DNA of 64,000 nucleotides from the human T2T-CHM13v2.0 reference genome, Homo sapiens (GCF_009914755.1 NC_060947.1); one strand, 5' to 3'. Numbered from the stretch's first letter, positions 17,595 through 35,811 are shown. Numbers and translations are program-made. Notes: a model not told the origin generated them from the letters alone.

Positions 17595-17666
17595 CATGTA
17601 TATAATCAGATTGTGTAAAACACTCCACTGAGCCATGGTCTGTTTGTTGCAGCAGCTTTATAGGCA
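17595..17666 (-). pseudogene. EVA1C-like pseudo-exon (post-SUEL2 linker), 72 nt
   Basis: ttttcatttcag|TGCCT...CATG|gtaagc; phase 1-1; reads VPIKLLQQTDHGSVECFTQSDYIH, continuing the TC-VP end of SUEL2. Confidence 0.75.
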
Positions 17667-18119
17667 CTGAAATGAAAACAGTCAAGAGTAGAAAAATTAT
17701 CATGGGAACTGCAGTTATTCTTCACATGTCTGAGATGGTGAGAAAGCTGATATTTGGCAGATATTTATTTAAAGATCAACATATTGTGAGAGCCTGAATT
17801 AAAATAGTGTTAAAACCAAATTTAAAAATTACAGCATTATCACACCTATTTATTACATTCTGAGTATTGGGTAGGGTAATGGTCTAGGCATTATTCCAGG
17901 GAAGTGGAAGAAATAAACTAATGAAATTGCAAGGCTCAGAAGTTAGGACTGTACACTAAGTGCTAGGGACTCAAAATGGAAAATCATGAAAAGATTTGGG
18001 ATTGAAGCAATTTCAAAATAAGGATTTGACAAATACCAAAATGGGTCTGGCCATTGTTTCAATTGGATGAAATGGCTCCTTCCTCTCAGTTTAGAAAAGT
18101 ATTGACATATTTTAAGTCA

Positions 18120-18735
18120 TAAAAATCCATCAAAACTTTTCTGTGATCTCACATCCCCCAGAGCTATGTCTCTCTTCCTCTTTGTAATAAAGAATAGTTC
18201 ACATTTGTTTTCTTTGCTTGCTCACCTTCTACTTTCTCCTCAATCCATTGCAATCTGACTCTAAATTCTACCATACCACTGACTAAAGTCACAGGCCGCA
18301 GTTTTCAGCTTACTTTGCCCCTTAACACTACTAGGTACAGTTGATCACAGATGACTGCACAACTCTGTGCATATACTGAAAATTATTGAATTTTTATTTT
18401 AAAATTGGTGTTTTATGGTACAAAAATATACAAAAATGAAATACAATAAAAATTGTTGGAGAAAGTTTGCCATTTGAGATTGAGTAAAGAAGATTAATGA
18501 AGGTTAAATGAATTACCCTAGACTCTCTGCTATTATAATATTAACTCCATAATTTAAATACCTAATTGTCTTCTTTCTCTATGCTATCACACCACATTCT
18601 TCTCATTTTCTTCCTACTTTACTTGTCTCTCCTTTGTCCCCTTTGAAAGTTTCTTTTTCTCTGCAAGTCCCTCAAGTGATAATATTCCTTAGGATTTTGT
18701 CCTATTCCCTCTTCTTTTCCAACTACACACAACAG
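18120..18735 (+). mobile_element. L2 remnant interrupted by a ~210-bp locally copied segment (18352-18560)
   Basis: CT-rich L2-like motifs (caatccattgcaatctgact, cagttgatcac, ccctcttcttttc) on both sides of the insert. Confidence 0.55.
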
Positions 18736-18748
18736 TTATCACCATCTT

Positions 18749-19057
18749 TTTTTTTTTTTTTTTTTTTTTTTTTTGAGACGGAGTCTGGCTCTGTCGCCCA
18801 GGCTGGAGTGCGGTGGCGCGATCTCGGCTCACTGCAAGCTCCGCCTCCCGGGTTCACGCCATTCTCCTGCCTCAGCCTCCCGAGTAGCTGGGACTACAGG
18901 CGCCCGCCACCGCGCCCGGCTAATTTTTTGTATTTTTAGTAGAGACGGGGTTTCACCGTGTGTTAGCCGGGATGGTCTCAATCTCCTGACCTCATGATCC
19001 GCCCGCTTCGGCCTCCCAAAGTGCTGGGATTACAGGCATGAGCCACCGCGCCCAGCC
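18749..19057 (-). mobile_element. AluY, CpG-rich
   Basis: Full reverse Alu; 16-bp TSD cagttatcaccatctt at 18733-18748 and 19058-19073. Confidence 0.95.
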
Positions 19058-31774: not shown

Positions 31775-31882
31775 CTGTCTAGTTGTGACTGACACACAGT
31801 TGGCATTTTCACTGGTCCTACCAATTGGAGTTGGGCAAAAGTTTTCCTTGGAGACTTTATGACCATAAAAAGTGGAAGTGAT
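31775..31882 (-). pseudogene. 3' portion of the L1-split EVA1C-like pseudo-exon (SUEL1 N-half)
   Basis: Reads TSTFYGHKVSKENFCPTPIGRTSENANCVSVTTRQ followed by the donor |gtaaga at 31774. Confidence 0.85.
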
Positions 31883-34800
31883 TTCTGCCTTCATTTCGTT
31901 ATGTACCTAGTAGTCATTCAGGAGCAGGTTGTTCAGTTTCCATGTAGTTGAGTGGTTTTGAGTGAGTTTCTTAATCCTGAATTCTAGTTTGATTGCACTG
32001 TGGTCTGAGAGACAGTTTGTTATAATTTCTGTTCTTTTATATTTGCTGAGGAGTGCTTTACTTCCAACTATGTGGTCAATTTTGGAATAAGTGTGATGTG
32101 GTGCTGAGAAGAAAGTATATTCTGTTGATTTGGGGTGGAGAGTTCTGTAGATGTCTATTAGGTCCGCTTGGTGCAGAGCTGAGTTCAATTCCTGGATATC
32201 CTTGTTAACTTTCTGCCTTGTTGATCTGTCTAATGTTGACAGTGGGGTGTTAAAGTCTCCCATTATTATTGTGTGGGAGTCTAAGTCTCTTTGTAGGTCT
32301 CTAAGGACTTGTTTTATGAATCTGGGTGCTCCTGTATTGGGTGCATATATATTTAGGATAGTTAGCTCTTCTTGTTGAATTGATCCCTTTACCATTATGT
32401 AATGGCCTTCTTTGTCTCTTTTGATCTTTGTTGATTTAAAGTCTGTTTTATCAGAGACTAGGATTGCAACCCCTGCCTTTCTTCATTTTTCTTTGAAACC
32501 AATGAGAACAAAGACACAACATACGAGAATCTCTGGGACACATTTAAAGCAGTGCATAGAAGGAAATTTATAGCACTAAATGCCCATAAGAGAAAGCAGG
32601 AAAGATCCAAAATTGACACCCTAACATCACAATTAAAAGAACCAGAGAAGCAAGAGCAAACATTCAAAAGCTAGCAAAAGGCAAGAAATAACTAAGATCA
32701 GAGCACAACTGAAGGAGATAGAGACACAAAAACGCTTCAAAAAATCAATGAATCCAGGAGCTGGTTTTTCAAAAAGATCAACAAAACTGAGAGACTGCTA
32801 GCAAAACTAATAAAGAAGAAAAGAGAGAAGAATCAAATAGACGCAATAAAAAACGATAAAGGGGATATCACCACCATTCCCACAGAAATACAAACTACCA
32901 TCAGAGAATACTATAAATACCTCTACACAAATAAACTAGAAAATCTAGAAGAAATGGATAAATTCCTGGATACACATACCCTCCCAAGACTAAACCAGGA
33001 AGAAGTTGAATCTCTGAATAGACCAATAACAGGCTCTGAAATTGAGGCAATAATTAATAGCTTACAACCAAAAAAAGTCCAGGACCAGACGGATTCACAG
33101 CCAAATTCTACCAGAGGTACAAGGAGGAGCTGGAACCATTCCTTCTGAAACTATTCCAATCAATAGAGAAAGAGGGAATCCTCCCTAACTCACTTTATGA
33201 AGCCAGCATCATACTGATACCAAAGCCTGGCAGAGACACAACAAAAAAAGAGAATTTTAGACCAATATCCCTGAAGAACATTGATGCAAAAATCCTCAAT
33301 AAAATACTGGCAAACCGAATCCAGCAGCACATCAAAAAGCTTATCCACCATGATCAAGTGGGCTTCATCCCTCGGATGCAAGGCTGGTTCAACACACGCA
33401 AATCAATAAACATAATCCAGCATATAAACAGAACCAAAGACAAAAACCACATGATTATCTCAATAGATGCAGAAAAGGTCTTTGACAAAATTCAACAGCC
33501 TTCATGCTAAAAACTCTCAATAAATTAGGTATTGATGGGATGGATCTCAAAATAATAAGAGCTATCTATGACAAACCCACAACCAATATCATACTGAATG
33601 GGCAAAAACTGGAAGCATTCCCTTTGAAAACTGGCACAAGACAGGGATGCCCTCTCTCACCACTCCTATTCAACATAGTGTTGGAAGTTCTGGCCAGGGC
33701 AATCAGGCAGGAGGAAGAAATAAAGGGTATTCAATTAGGAAAAGAGGAAGTCAAATTGTCCCTGTTTGCAGATGACATGATTGTATATTTAGAAAACCCC
33801 ATCATCACAGCCCAAAATCTCCTTAAGCTGATAAGCAACTTCTGCAAAGCCTCAGGATACAAAATCAATGTGCAAAAATCACAAGCATTCTTATACACCA
33901 ATAACAGACAGAGAGCCAAATCATGAGTGAACTCCCATTCATAATTGCTTCAAAGAGAATAAAATAGCTAGGAATCCAACTTACAAGGGATGTGAAGGAC
34001 CTCTTCAAGGAGAACTACAAACCACTGCTCAAGGAAATAAAAGAGGACACAAACAAATGGAAGAACATTCCATGCTCATGGATAGAAGAATCAATATCAT
34101 GAAAATGGCCATACTCCCCAAGGTAATTTATAGATTCAATGCCATCCCCATCAAGCTACCAATGACTTTCTTCACAGAATTGGAAAAAACTACTTTAAAG
34201 TTCATATGGAACCAAAAAAGAGCCCATATCGCGAAGTTAATCCTAAGCCAAAAGAATAAACCTGGAGGCATCACGCTACCTGACTTCAAACTATACTACA
34301 AGGCTACAGTAACCAAAACAGCATGGTACTGGTACCAAAACAGAGATATAGACCAAGGGAACAGAACACAGCCCTCAGAAATAATACCACACATCTATAA
34401 CCATCTGATCTTTGACAAACCTGACAAAAACAAGAAATGAGGAAAGGATTCCCTATTTAATAAATGGTGCTGGGAAAATTGGCTAGCCATATGGAGAAAG
34501 CTGAAACTGGATCCCTTCCTTACACCTTATACAAAAATTAATTCAAGATGGATTAAAGATTTAAATGTTAGACCTAAAACCATAAAAACCCTAGAAGAAA
34601 ACCTAGGCAATACCATTCAGGACATAGGCATGGCGAAGGACTTCTTGACTAAAACACCAAAAGCAATGGCAACAAAAGCCAAAATTGACAAATGGGATCT
34701 AATTAAACTAAAGAGCTTCTGCACAGCAAAAGAAACTACCATCAGAGTGAACAGGCAACCTACAGATGGGAGAAAATTTTTGCAATCTACTCATCTGACA

Positions 34801-35703
34801 AAGGGCTAATATCCAGAATCTACAAAGAACTCAAACAAATTTACAAGAAAAAAAACAAACAACCCCATCAAAAAGTGGGTGAAGGATATGAACAGACACT
34901 TCTCAAAAGAAGACATTTATGCAGCCAACAGACACATGAAAAAATGCTCATCATCACTGGTCATCAGAGAAATGCAAATCAAAATCACAATGAGATACCG
35001 TCTCACACCAGTTAGAATGGCGATCATTAAAAAGTCAGGAAACAACAGGTGCTGGAGAGGGTGTGGAGAAATAGGAACACTTTTACACTGTTGGTGGGAC
35101 TGTAAACTAGTTCAACCATTGTGGAAGTCAGTGTGGCGATTCCTCAGGGATCCAGAACTAGAAATACCATTTGACCCAGCCATCCCTTTACTGGGTATAT
35201 ACCCAAAGGATTATAAATCATGCTGCTATAAAGACATATGCACACGTATGTTCATTGCAGCACTATTCACAATAGCAAAGACTTGGAACCAACCCAAATG
35301 TCCAACAACGATAGACTGGATTAAGAAAATGTGCCACATATACACCATGGAATACTATGCAGCCATAAAAAAGGATGAGTTCATGTCCTTTGTAGGGACG
35401 TGGATGAAGCTGGAAACCATCATTCTGAGCAAACTATCACAAGGACAAAAAACCAAGTACCGTAGGTTCTCACTCATAGGTGGGAATTGAACAATGAGAA
35501 CACTTGGACACAGGAAGGTGAACATCACACACTGGGGCCTGTCACGTGGCGGGGGTAGGGGGGAGGGATAGCATTAGGAGATATACGTAATGTAAATGAA
35601 GAGTTAATGGGTGCAGCACACCAACATGGCACATGTATACATATGTAACAAACCTGCACGTTGTGCACATGTACCCTAGAACTTAAAGTATAATAATCAT
35701 AAA
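31883..35703 (+). mobile_element. 5'-truncated, 5'-inverted (twin-primed) L1PA; inverted part 31883-32480 (-), sense part ~32489-35703 (+)
   Basis: ORF 31907-32395 (-) is the EN domain; sense ORF2 pieces follow; TSD aaaaagtggaagtgat (31867-31882) / aaaaagcggaagggat (35704-35719). Confidence 0.95.
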
Positions 35704-35811
35704 AAAAAGCGGAAGGGATAATAATAGATGCCTTTTGTGGGTACATGATTCCCAGTTGCTCTCCATAGCATTCATGAGCTATATGTTTCTTCAGGACCTT
35801 CTTTAGTTAGG
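35704..35811 (-). pseudogene. 5' portion of the L1-split EVA1C-like pseudo-exon (SUEL1 N-half)
   Basis: ttcccccag|CCTAA...; reads *LKKVLKKHIAHECYGEQLGIMYPQKASIIIPSAF, compared with EVA1C YLTKLLQNHTTYACDGDYLNLQCPRHSTISVQSAFYG. Confidence 0.85.

What the first reader, a model, noticed from the sequence alone, without database searches (positions are those of the whole stretch)
17595..35811. Hidden intron-containing EVA1C-like (double SUEL lectin) pseudogene in the int22h spacer
Seen in sequence: five minus-strand exons bounded by AG and GT/GC (200 nt once the L1 is removed, then 124, 152, 144 and 72 nt). They are colinear, with phases 1-0, 0-1, 1-1 (one 1-nt deletion), 1-1 and 1-1. Spliced by hand they give two tandem SUEL domains (ECYGE..SAFYG..C..C..DECQ..VFGPDPCP..YKC and CE..SASYG..C..C..GKPCFPGVKK..TCVP). 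Established knowledge: this architecture is that of EVA1C (chr21), related to C. elegans EVA-1, a Slit/netrin co-receptor. Inference: retained introns and the divergence from EVA1C argue against a retrocopy or a recent duplicate. They point instead to a unitary pseudogene of an ancient EVA1C paralogue that may be intact in non-mammalian vertebrates. The ORF track shows only fragments of it. I do not know whether it is already annotated.
Basis: partly seen in the sequence, partly recalled or inferred. Interest (0 to 1): 0.92.

Follow-up and report, generated by a model that had tools for sequence, protein, structure and literature searches.

The report
Dead human EVA1C-like gene on X
Between the two distal int22h repeats on human Xq28 lies the decayed, intron-bearing remnant of a second EVA1C-type lectin receptor gene that is still intact in platypus, birds, reptiles, amphibians and fish, so it records an old gene loss rather than a working gene.

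Summary
Five colinear minus-strand exon relics of 200 (after removing an L1), 124, 152, 144 and 72 nt have AG acceptors, GT or GC donors and the stated phases. They encode two decayed SUEL lectin domains.

The relic is not a copy of human EVA1C. It shares 37% amino-acid identity with EVA1C and no nucleotide similarity. It is the human orthologue of the vertebrate gene annotated "protein eva-1 homolog C-like". Identity to platypus is 60%. In the tree it is sister to platypus inside a 100/100 clade separate from EVA1C. The AU test rejects placement with EVA1C, p = 0.0005.

Sixteen sauropsid species carry both genes. None of the 120 best hits is a therian mammal.

The human copy has five in-frame stops, one frameshift, an L1 inside an exon and 5 of 16 conserved cysteines lost. 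No signal-peptide, transmembrane or FAM176 exons were found. It is a unitary pseudogene, absent from the RefSeq table supplied. Eight literature searches did not find it. GENCODE could not be checked.

The parts
35709..35811 (-). Exon relic 1, 5' part (103 nt). It starts in phase 1 after cccccag|. The second codon is TAA where orthologues have Tyr. It encodes ..LKKVLKKHIAHECYGEQLGIMYPQKASIIIPSA.
   Evidence: tblastn with gecko P0003 gives E 2.5e-6. The family profile gives E 5.1e-8. Platypus P0023 against the genome gives E 3.1e-4.
31872..35708 (+). L1 insertion that splits exon relic 1. It is sense on the + strand and its 5' roughly 600 bp are inverted (twin-priming type). It ends in a poly(A) run and is flanked by a roughly 12-nt target-site duplication (CTTCCRCTTTTT on the minus strand).
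   Evidence: Searches show the junctions and the duplication. One search aligns it to the intron-2 L1: 94.0% identity over 3,227 nt on the plus strand and 96.5% over 603 nt on the minus strand.
31775..31871 (-). Exon relic 1, 3' part (97 nt). It encodes FYGHKVSKENFCPTPIGRTSENANCVSVTTRQ and ends in phase 0 at |gtaaga.
   Evidence: tblastn E 7.4e-6. Profile E 1.1e-7. Same intron position and phase as human EVA1C, which ends ...TCVAATTFQ|gt.
30369..30492 (-). Exon relic 2 (124 nt, phases 0-1, GC donor). It is the second half of SUEL domain 1 and carries in-frame TGA and TAG.
   Evidence: Pfam SUEL_Lectin 33.3 bits in the genome scan and 34.6 bits, E 2.6e-8, as a peptide. It is 76% identical to gecko EVA1C-like proteins, E 4.5e-15 against 5.8 billion proteins. 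tblastn E 1.8e-15.
23963..30188 (+). Full-length L1 (about 6.2 kb) inside intron 2 of the relic. It accounts for most of that intron.
   Evidence: Long L1 ORF1 and ORF2 frames appear (25168-25797 and 26086-27750). The repeat mask in the hub table covers it. One search aligns it to the exon-1 L1.
23570..23721 (-). Exon relic 3 (152 nt, phases 1-1). It is the first half of SUEL domain 2. A 1-nt deletion near 23619 shifts the frame. A conserved Cys is replaced by Arg (RLQRRN).
   Evidence: tblastn E 1.6e-8 in two frames. Profile E 1.2e-11. Platypus against the genome E 3.6e-6. The human EVA1C counterpart is 153 nt.
21431..21574 (-). Exon relic 4 (144 nt, phases 1-1). It is the second half of SUEL domain 2. 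It carries in-frame TAG and TAA, and two conserved Cys are lost.
   Evidence: tblastn E 2.5e-12 at 58% identity. Platypus against the genome E 8.6e-12. Same length and phases as human EVA1C exon D.
17595..17666 (-). Exon relic 5 (72 nt, phases 1-1). It is the linker after the lectin domains (VPIKLLQQTDHGSVECFTQSDYIH). It is the last recognisable exon.
   Evidence: Profile E 0.005 among 7,960 ORFs. tblastn alone is weak, E 1.6.
37000..38400 (.). GC-rich (0.54-0.60), CpG-depleted block 1.2 kb upstream of relic 1. It may be a decayed promoter or CpG island. It holds a weak candidate first exon at 37246..37154 (minus strand, M...SVAPE).
   Evidence: One search gives composition and sequence. The candidate has only tblastn E 1.2. 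It is not among the best 8 of 598 ORFs for an N-terminal profile. Inference only.

Best explanation
Window 17595-35811, minus strand, holds exons 2 to 6 of a dead gene. The gene is the human orthologue of the vertebrate gene that NCBI annotates as 'protein eva-1 homolog C-like'. It is an ancient paralogue of EVA1C.

In species that keep the gene, it encodes a roughly 425-residue protein. That protein has a signal peptide, two extracellular SUEL/rhamnose-binding lectin domains, one membrane span and a cytoplasmic FAM176 (EVA1) domain.

In human the copy cannot make that protein. It has five in-frame stops, one frameshift and an L1 inside an exon. It has lost 5 of 16 structural cysteines. Its signal-peptide, transmembrane and FAM176 exons are gone or unrecognisable. 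No intact copy exists elsewhere in the genome, so it is a unitary pseudogene: a fossil of a gene loss, with no coding function.

Inferred, not shown:
- Constraint was lost on the order of 100 million years ago, before the two young L1s inserted. This would fit a loss shared by therian mammals, or at least by placentals.
- By homology with EVA1C and C. elegans EVA-1 (recalled literature), the ancestral protein was probably a lectin-type co-receptor in Slit/Robo-type guidance signalling.
For: Anatomy:
- Five colinear exons have intact AG acceptors and GT or GC donors.
- Intron positions and phases match human EVA1C at every junction compared.

Domain identity:
- Pfam SUEL_Lectin scores above its cut-off on relic 2.

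Orthology:
- Relic 2 alone retrieves 5 of 5 candidates. All are gecko 'eva-1 homolog C-like' proteins, 76% identical, E 4.5e-15 to 1.9e-14.
- The read-through peptide aligns without gaps to 11 orthologues. Identity is 134/224 (60%) to platypus, 57% to gecko and turtle, 46% to gar, but only 73/197 (37%) to human EVA1C.
- Platypus is the best match among all 379 proteins fetched.
- An IQ-TREE tree of 47 rows and 233 columns puts the relic with platypus (98/93). This pair sits inside an amniote group (99/96), inside an 18-row EVA1C-like clade (100/100). The 16-row EVA1C clade that holds the human chr21 gene is separate (100/97).
- The AU test rejects the relic joining the EVA1C clade: log-likelihood difference 68.9, p = 0.0005.

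Paralogy:
- Sixteen species appear in both the EVA1C-like list and the EVA1C list.
- In 5 of 5 species tested the two proteins are 34-42% identical to each other. Human EVA1C is 72-79% identical to their EVA1C.

Unitary status:
- Platypus protein searched against the whole human genome finds only this locus, EVA1C, its known partial duplicates and distant SUEL or FAM176 genes.

Decay:
- Five stops and one frameshift.
- 22 of 81 columns that are invariant in 11 intact orthologues are changed. Intact control species show 1 to 9 changes in 84 to 92 such columns.
- The terminal branch is 0.63, against 0.12 for platypus.

Loss of the 3' half:
- The FAM176 profile finds nothing near the locus.
- The family profile finds nothing for positions 1-35 or 270-425 in 124 kb.
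- The platypus C-terminal 158 residues hit only EVA1C and EVA1A genome-wide.

Distribution:
- The 120 best of 443 hits are squamates, turtles, a crocodilian, birds, platypus, caecilians, frogs, salamanders, sturgeon and gar. One record is unnamed. None is a therian.
Against: - Synteny was not tested. No vertebrate genome other than human is reachable here. The only hints are contig lengths. The chicken protein lies on a 90.86-Mb contig, the size of chicken chromosome 4. Many birds carry it on 19-27-Mb contigs, the size of chromosome 4A. The link of those chromosomes to human Xq is recalled, not tested.
- 'No therian orthologue' rests on the top 120 of 443 hits and on a word-limited search. A fast-evolving therian copy ranked lower would have been missed.
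- Only relic 2 reaches a Pfam threshold. Relics 1, 3, 4 and 5 give no Pfam hit alone and depend on the family-specific profile and tblastn.
- The defining FAM176 domain of the family is absent from the human locus, so the full architecture cannot be shown in human.
- The clade tested was named after the tree had been seen.
- The date estimate uses recalled substitution rates and protein data only.
- All splice dinucleotides survive and there is only one small indel. That is slightly fewer lesions than the estimated decay predicts. The local L1 pair gives 9 gap openings per 199 mismatches, so about 4-5 indels were expected. P(1 or fewer) is about 0.06, which is not significant.
- Orthologue 'intactness' is taken from automatic annotation.
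Confidence: 0.9

Rival explanations
1. It is a recent segmental duplicate of human EVA1C, like the EVA1CP pseudogenes on chromosomes 3, 4, 7 and 11, that has since decayed.
For: The exon sizes and phases are the same as in EVA1C. Partial EVA1C copies do exist in the genome. EVA1CP6 on chr3 is named in passages of PMC10997618.
Against: Identity to human EVA1C is only 37% at the protein level. Exons of equal length are 58.9% and 51.4% identical at the nucleotide level, and there is no flank or intron similarity. The relic is nearer to platypus, turtle and gecko EVA1C-like proteins than to any EVA1C. The tree and the AU test reject it.
Confidence: 0.01
2. It is a processed retrocopy of an EVA1C-type mRNA, or a chance set of ORF fragments.
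For: None beyond the presence of stops and repeats in the region.
Against: Four introns of 1.3 to 6.6 kb sit at the ancestral positions with splice signals. The exon hits are colinear, on one strand, with E down to 1e-15. A profile scan of 7,960 ORFs gives no other hit below E = 5.
Confidence: 0.01
3. The locus is still used. Either it is a spliced non-coding RNA that keeps the old exons and splice sites, or some human haplotypes make a truncated secreted lectin.
For: All five acceptors and all five donors are still usable, and only one small indel is seen in 692 nt. An upstream GC-rich block is present.
Against: Five stops are spread over four exons, starting at the second codon of relic 1. 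Structural cysteines are lost. There is no start or signal exon. The RefSeq table supplied with the finding has no transcript here. The survival of the splice sites and the low indel count are within chance (ratio; P about 0.06 to 0.2). Expression data were not available.
Confidence: 0.04
4. It descends from a soluble two-domain rhamnose-binding lectin of the fish type, not from an EVA1-type membrane receptor.
For: Only lectin-domain exons survive, and no FAM176 relic is found.
Against: Every close relative carries FAM176 or is an isoform of a gene that does. Platypus P0023 has two SUEL stretches plus FAM176. Relic 5 matches the EVA1C-like linker that follows domain 2 (E 0.005). The tree places the relic inside the EVA1C-like clade.
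Confidence: 0.02

Closest known systems
Vertebrate 'protein eva-1 homolog C-like' (for example platypus P0023, gecko P0003, chicken P0079, turtle P0015)
   Same: The sequence is orthologous: 60% identity to platypus over 224 residues with no gaps, and sister to platypus in the tree. The two SUEL domains and the linker are the same. The exon 3 boundaries agree with a gecko isoform that skips exactly that segment (P0007).
   Different: The human copy is dead: five stops, one frameshift, an L1 in an exon and lost cysteines. It lacks the signal-peptide, cassette, transmembrane and FAM176 exons.
Human EVA1C (chr21; C21orf63/FAM176C), homologue of C. elegans EVA-1
   Same: The domain type and the exon-intron plan are the same. 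Exon sizes are 197/124/153/144 nt against 200/124/152/144 nt, with identical phases.
   Different: It is a paralogue, not the parent. Protein identity is 37% and there is no nucleotide similarity outside short exon patches. The clades are separate. EVA1C is intact and keeps FAM176.
EVA1CP-type partial duplicates of EVA1C (chr3, chr4, chr7, chr11)
   Same: They are non-functional EVA1-related fragments that keep introns.
   Different: Those are copies of EVA1C exons with open frames and EVA1C-type sequence. They arose by segmental duplication and are not unitary. The X relic is single-copy and of the other paralogue. The symbol and the chr3 location of EVA1CP6 come from passages of PMC10997618. 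That the other hits are EVA1CP genes is recalled.

Membership tests
SUEL/rhamnose-binding lectin domain (Pfam PF02140) | A match to the Pfam profile above the curated cut-off (31.4 bits) | tested here: met
   Relic 2 scores 33.3 bits in the genome scan and 34.6 bits, E 2.6e-8, as a peptide. Relics 1, 3, 4 and 5 give no Pfam hit on their own.
SUEL/rhamnose-binding lectin domain (Pfam PF02140) | Eight conserved cysteines per domain, needed for a folded functional domain | tested here: not met
   In the alignment, 6 of 8 cysteines are kept in domain 1 and 5 of 8 in domain 2. One search lists the losses, aligned there as Cys to Tyr (two), Arg (two) and Ser. This fits a relic, not a working domain.
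Vertebrate EVA1C-like gene (orthology) | Closest sequence relatives are EVA1C-like rather than EVA1C, and the gene tree follows the species tree | tested here: met
   Searches show the best matches. One search gives the tree: sister to platypus 98/93, clade 100/100. One search gives AU p = 0.0005 against an EVA1C placement.
Vertebrate EVA1C-like gene (orthology) | Full architecture: signal peptide, two SUEL domains, membrane span and FAM176 domain | tested here: not met
   Only the two SUEL domains and the linker survive. No FAM176 or transmembrane relic is found in 124 kb or genome-wide. No first exon is found.
Vertebrate EVA1C-like gene (orthology) | Conserved synteny with CLIC2/TMLHE neighbours in other vertebrates | not testable with these tools
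   No vertebrate genome other than human is available. The only indirect hints are contig lengths (chicken 90.86 Mb; many birds 19-27 Mb).
Unitary pseudogene | Disabling lesions in a gene that keeps its introns (neither a retrocopy nor a duplicate) | tested here: met
   Five stops, one frameshift and an L1 in an exon. Introns sit at the ancestral positions. There is no similarity to the EVA1C locus.
Unitary pseudogene | No functional copy of the same orthologue elsewhere in the genome | tested here: met
   Platypus protein against the whole T2T genome finds, besides this locus, only EVA1C, its partial copies and distant SUEL or FAM176 genes.
Unitary pseudogene | An intact orthologue in other species | tested here: met
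   Full-length proteins are annotated in platypus, birds, reptiles, amphibians, sturgeon and gar. Their intactness is taken from annotation. Their function was not tested.
EVA1CP-type segmental duplicate of EVA1C | High nucleotide identity to the chr21 EVA1C locus, introns included | tested here: not met
   Exon identity is 51-59%, and there is no significant flank or intron match.

The most novel reading that the evidence does not exclude
The relic is the only human trace of a fourth EVA1-family gene, a sister of EVA1C that dates back at least to the ancestor of bony vertebrates. It may be a whole-genome-duplication partner: this gene lies beside CLIC2 on Xq28 as EVA1C lies near CLIC6 on 21q22 (these map positions are recalled). 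On this reading the gene was lost in the therian or early placental lineage about 100 million years ago and has not yet been described or named. Therians would then run Slit/Robo-type guidance with one lectin co-receptor fewer than platypus, birds and reptiles.
Probability: 0.4. Interest if true: 0.55.

Novelty: new member of a known kind. Interest (0 to 1): 0.45.

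Why it matters
- It adds a cleanly documented unitary pseudogene to the human X. It lies in the spacer of the int22h-2/int22h-3 palindrome, a region studied for haemophilia A inversions and Xq28 duplications.
- It shows that the EVA1 family had a further member that therian mammals seem to have lost while monotremes kept it. 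That gives a concrete, datable gene loss to test across mammals through shared stops and the shared frameshift.
- It gives a reason to study the uncharacterised EVA1C-like gene in chicken, lizard, frog or fish.
- It is also a useful annotation fix. The RefSeq table supplied for T2T-CHM13 lists nothing here.
- It does not reveal a new kind of element or a working human gene.

Tried and rejected
- **First exon.** A candidate at 37246..37154 (M...SVAPE, tblastn E 1.2) lies in a GC-rich block. An N-terminal profile of the orthologues did not rank it among the best 8 of 598 upstream minus-strand ORFs, and nothing there was significant. It is kept only as a weak lead.
- **3' exons.** These were sought with the Pfam FAM176 profile genome-wide and with tblastn of the gecko protein. 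They were also sought with a 28-sequence family profile over chrX 153,596,001-153,720,000, with the whole platypus protein and with its C-terminal 158 residues genome-wide. None was found.
- **A weak FAM176 hit on chrX at 146.95 Mb**. It is a GA-rich simple repeat and does not match the family profile. Rejected.
- **An alternative frame for relic 4** (WCSTRT...IVC) that I first considered.
- **Replacement of the 3' end by a segmental duplication.** Window 12330-17590 is single-copy except for an old dispersed repeat at about 70-78% identity. There is no sign of such a replacement.
- **Too few indels as a sign of constraint.** The local L1 pair gives about 1 gap opening per 22 mismatches, so one indel is not significantly low.
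- **Protein Atlas lookup**. It gave only phylum-level taxa and did not help on therians.
- **Literature searches** (listings only unless stated):
  - EVA1C + pseudogene: 7 papers, none relevant by title or abstract.
  - 'eva-1 homolog C-like': 0 papers.
  - EVA1CP: 3 papers. Passages of PMC10997618 name EVA1CP6 on chr3. PMC12519442 had no occurrence in the held text.
  - Gene loss/therian/unitary pseudogene/platypus: nothing relevant in the 15 listed of 114.
  - EVA1D/eva1cl/EVA1C-like/eva1c.2: 3 unrelated papers.
  - int22h-2 + int22h-3 + pseudogene: 2 papers, not about this.
  - C21orf63 + Xq28: 0 papers.
  - EVA1C/paralog/SUEL/vertebrate: none of the 10 listed holds EVA1C.

Full report
**What is in the sequence**

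The minus strand of window 17595-35811 carries five exon-like blocks in colinear order. I read them in three frames and fixed the boundaries by script.

| Relic | Window coordinates | Length | Notes |
|---|---|---|---|
| 1 | 35811..35709 plus 31871..31775 | 200 nt | split by an L1 |
| 2 | 30492..30369 | 124 nt | GC donor |
| 3 | 23721..23570 | 152 nt | 1-nt deletion |
| 4 | 21574..21431 | 144 nt | |
| 5 | 17666..17595 | 72 nt | |

All five acceptors are AG. The donors are GT, GC, GT, GT, GT.

Relic 1 is split by an L1 that is sense on the plus strand. The L1 has an inverted 5' end, a poly(A) run and a roughly 12-nt target-site duplication. Removing the L1 and one duplication copy restores a continuous frame of exactly 200 nt.

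What it left out is the damage. The frame contains five stops: TAA at the second codon of relic 1, TGA and TAG in relic 2, and TAG and TAA in relic 4. It also has the 1-nt deletion in a Leu codon of relic 3.

**Is it more than chance?**

The Pfam SUEL_Lectin model, run in six frames over the whole T2T genome, gave 19 matches at E up to 10. They fall in loci that I take, from recalled map positions, to be the three latrophilin genes, EVA1C, PKD1L2 and partial EVA1C copies.

One further hit is at chrX:153,666,376-153,666,498, which is relic 2. It scores 33.3 bits, above the 31.4-bit cut-off, with one TGA and one TAG inside. As a peptide with X at the stops it scores 34.6 bits, E 2.6e-8. Scanned alone, relics 1, 3, 4 and 5 give no Pfam hit.

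I built a profile from 28 full-length orthologues and ran it over 7,960 six-frame ORFs from chrX:153,596,001-153,720,000. Below E = 5 it hit only the five relics. All hits were on the minus strand and in profile order:
- relic 3: 1.2e-11
- relic 4: 2.6e-9
- the two halves of relic 1: 5.1e-8 and 1.1e-7
- relic 2, in three pieces between its stops: 0.0016, 0.011 and 0.18
- relic 5: 0.005

Everything else had E of 5 or more.

**What it is**

Relic 2 was searched against 5.8 billion proteins. It returned 5 of 5 candidates. All are gecko proteins annotated 'protein eva-1 homolog C-like'. They are 76% identical over the whole 41 residues, with E 4.5e-15 to 1.9e-14, and most carry SUEL plus FAM176 domains.

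The gecko protein P0003 then returned 443 relatives at E up to 1e-10. The best 120 are squamates, turtles, an alligator, many birds, platypus, caecilians, frogs, salamanders, sturgeon and gar. One record is unnamed. None is a marsupial or placental.

tblastn of the gecko protein against the window reproduces the five relics in order. The E-values are 2.5e-6, 7.4e-6, 1.8e-15, 1.6e-8 (in two frames), 2.5e-12 and a weak 1.6 for relic 5. Residues 267-423 find nothing.

Read through with X at the breaks, the relic aligns without gaps to 11 orthologues.

| Compared with | Identity |
|---|---|
| platypus | 134/224 (60%) |
| gecko | 57% |
| turtle | 57% |
| chicken | 51% |
| gar | 46% |
| human EVA1C | 73/197 (37%) |

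**Relation to EVA1C**

Human EVA1C exons A-D were located on chr21 from the genome. They are 197, 124, 153 and 144 nt, with the same phases and the same junction residues. For example, EVA1C ends exon A at ...TCVAATTFQ|gt and the relic ends at ...NCVSVTTRQ|gt. The two genes therefore share an exon plan, and the relic is not a retrocopy.

It is not a recent copy either. The two exons of equal length are 58.9% and 51.4% identical at the nucleotide level. The exons with 150 nt of flank have no significant match anywhere in the EVA1C locus.

The tree used IQ-TREE with LG+C20, 47 rows and 233 columns.
- The relic joins platypus (98/93).
- This pair sits within an amniote group (99/96).
- That group sits within an 18-row EVA1C-like clade (100/100).
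- The human chr21 gene sits in a separate 16-row EVA1C clade (100/97).

Forcing the relic into the EVA1C clade costs 68.9 log-likelihood units, AU p = 0.0005. The clade was named after the tree had been seen.

A search with an avian EVA1C (P0141) lists EVA1C proper in birds, turtles, squamates and mammals. Sixteen species occur in both lists. In 5 of 5 species tested the two proteins are only 34-42% identical to each other, while human EVA1C is 72-79% identical to their EVA1C. So these are two old paralogues. Human keeps one and has only the wreck of the other.

**Unitary status and extent**

The platypus protein was searched against the whole human genome. It finds the five X relics, EVA1C and the partial EVA1C copies on chromosomes 3, 4, 7 and 11. 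It also finds weak hits in loci I take to be the latrophilin genes and EVA1A. No second EVA1C-like locus appears.

The 3' half of the gene is missing.
- The FAM176 profile hits three loci strongly, on chr2, chr1 and chr21. I take these to be EVA1A, EVA1B and EVA1C.
- Its only chrX hit, at 146.95 Mb, is a GA-rich simple repeat.
- The platypus C-terminal 158 residues hit only the chr21 and chr2 loci.
- The family profile finds nothing for positions 270-425 within 40 kb downstream.
- DNA just downstream of relic 5 is single-copy apart from an old dispersed repeat.

A first exon was not found either. The one candidate is weak.

**How decayed, and since when (inference)**

Of 81 alignment columns that are invariant in 11 intact orthologues from gar to platypus, the relic has changed 22, and 2 more are stops or the frameshift. 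Intact species used as controls changed 1 to 9 of 84 to 92 such columns. Five of 16 conserved cysteines are lost. The terminal branch is 0.63 against 0.12 for platypus.

Suppose the invariant columns changed only after constraint was lost. Then 27% changed gives about 0.32 replacements per residue, or roughly 0.14-0.17 substitutions per nucleotide. With recalled human-lineage neutral rates, that is of the order of 100 million years, with wide error.

The two L1s are 94-96.5% identical to each other. They are therefore much younger, so the L1 in relic 1 was probably not the first lesion. This timing fits the absence of therians among the best hits, but it does not prove a therian-wide loss.

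**Function**

The human locus has no coding function. Platypus P0023 has two SUEL stretches (E 2.2e-38) and FAM176 (E 1e-10). So the ancestral product was a single-pass membrane protein with two lectin domains, like EVA1C. The link to Slit/Robo guidance comes from recalled work on C. elegans EVA-1 and mouse EVA1C. It is an inference for this paralogue.

**Is it known?**

The RefSeq table supplied with the finding lists nothing between window 1 and 58,900. Eight literature searches found no description of this locus or of the EVA1C-like gene. EVA1CP symbols refer to autosomal EVA1C fragments; passages of PMC10997618 name EVA1CP6 on chr3. GENCODE, HGNC and subscription journals could not be checked, and no supplementary files were opened.

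**Verdict**

This is a new member of a known kind: a unitary pseudogene. It is of moderate interest.

Noticed in passing
window 23963-30188 (+): A full-length L1 of about 6.2 kb with long open ORF1 and ORF2 stretches fills most of intron 2 of the relic. It is 94-96.5% identical to the L1 that splits relic 1.
   Followed up: partly
window 31872-35708 (+): This L1 has its first roughly 600 bp inverted relative to the rest, a twin-priming-type 5' inversion. Its roughly 12-nt target-site duplication differs at one base between the two copies.
   Followed up: partly
window 37000-38400: A block with GC of 0.54-0.60 lies in a 0.35-0.39 background and has almost no CpG (observed/expected 0.0-0.41). 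It may be a dead CpG island of the lost gene.
   Followed up: partly
window 12645-15307: This stretch is not in the list of masked repeats (which gives only the longest stretches), yet it matches dozens of dispersed genomic copies at 65-84% identity. It is an old interspersed repeat.
   Followed up: no
chrX 153,596,001-153,720,000 (window -40000 to 84000): Chance profile hits came in mirror pairs whose window coordinates sum to about 44,770-44,830. That fits the inverted arms of the int22h-2/int22h-3 palindrome. Its axis would be near window 22,400, so the relic lies almost at the centre of the roughly 68-kb spacer.
   Followed up: partly
G000 chr3:75.43 Mb and 132.80 Mb, chr4:3.92 Mb and 9.73 Mb, chr7:7.02 Mb, chr11:67.75 Mb: Partial copies of the EVA1C exons that encode the first halves of the two SUEL domains, several with open frames of 109-136 residues. 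They are probably the EVA1CP pseudogenes. Only EVA1CP6 on chr3 was checked, in a paper passage.
   Followed up: partly
proteins P0148, P0134, P0140: A small, well-supported third clade (97/89) branches outside both the EVA1C and the EVA1C-like clades. Its organisms are unnamed. It could be an early-branching vertebrate lineage or a further paralogue.
   Followed up: no
L013 = G000 chrX:146,945,401-146,948,664: The weak FAM176 profile hit here (E 0.014) is a GA-rich simple repeat that translates to E/K/R runs. It is not a gene relic.
   Followed up: yes
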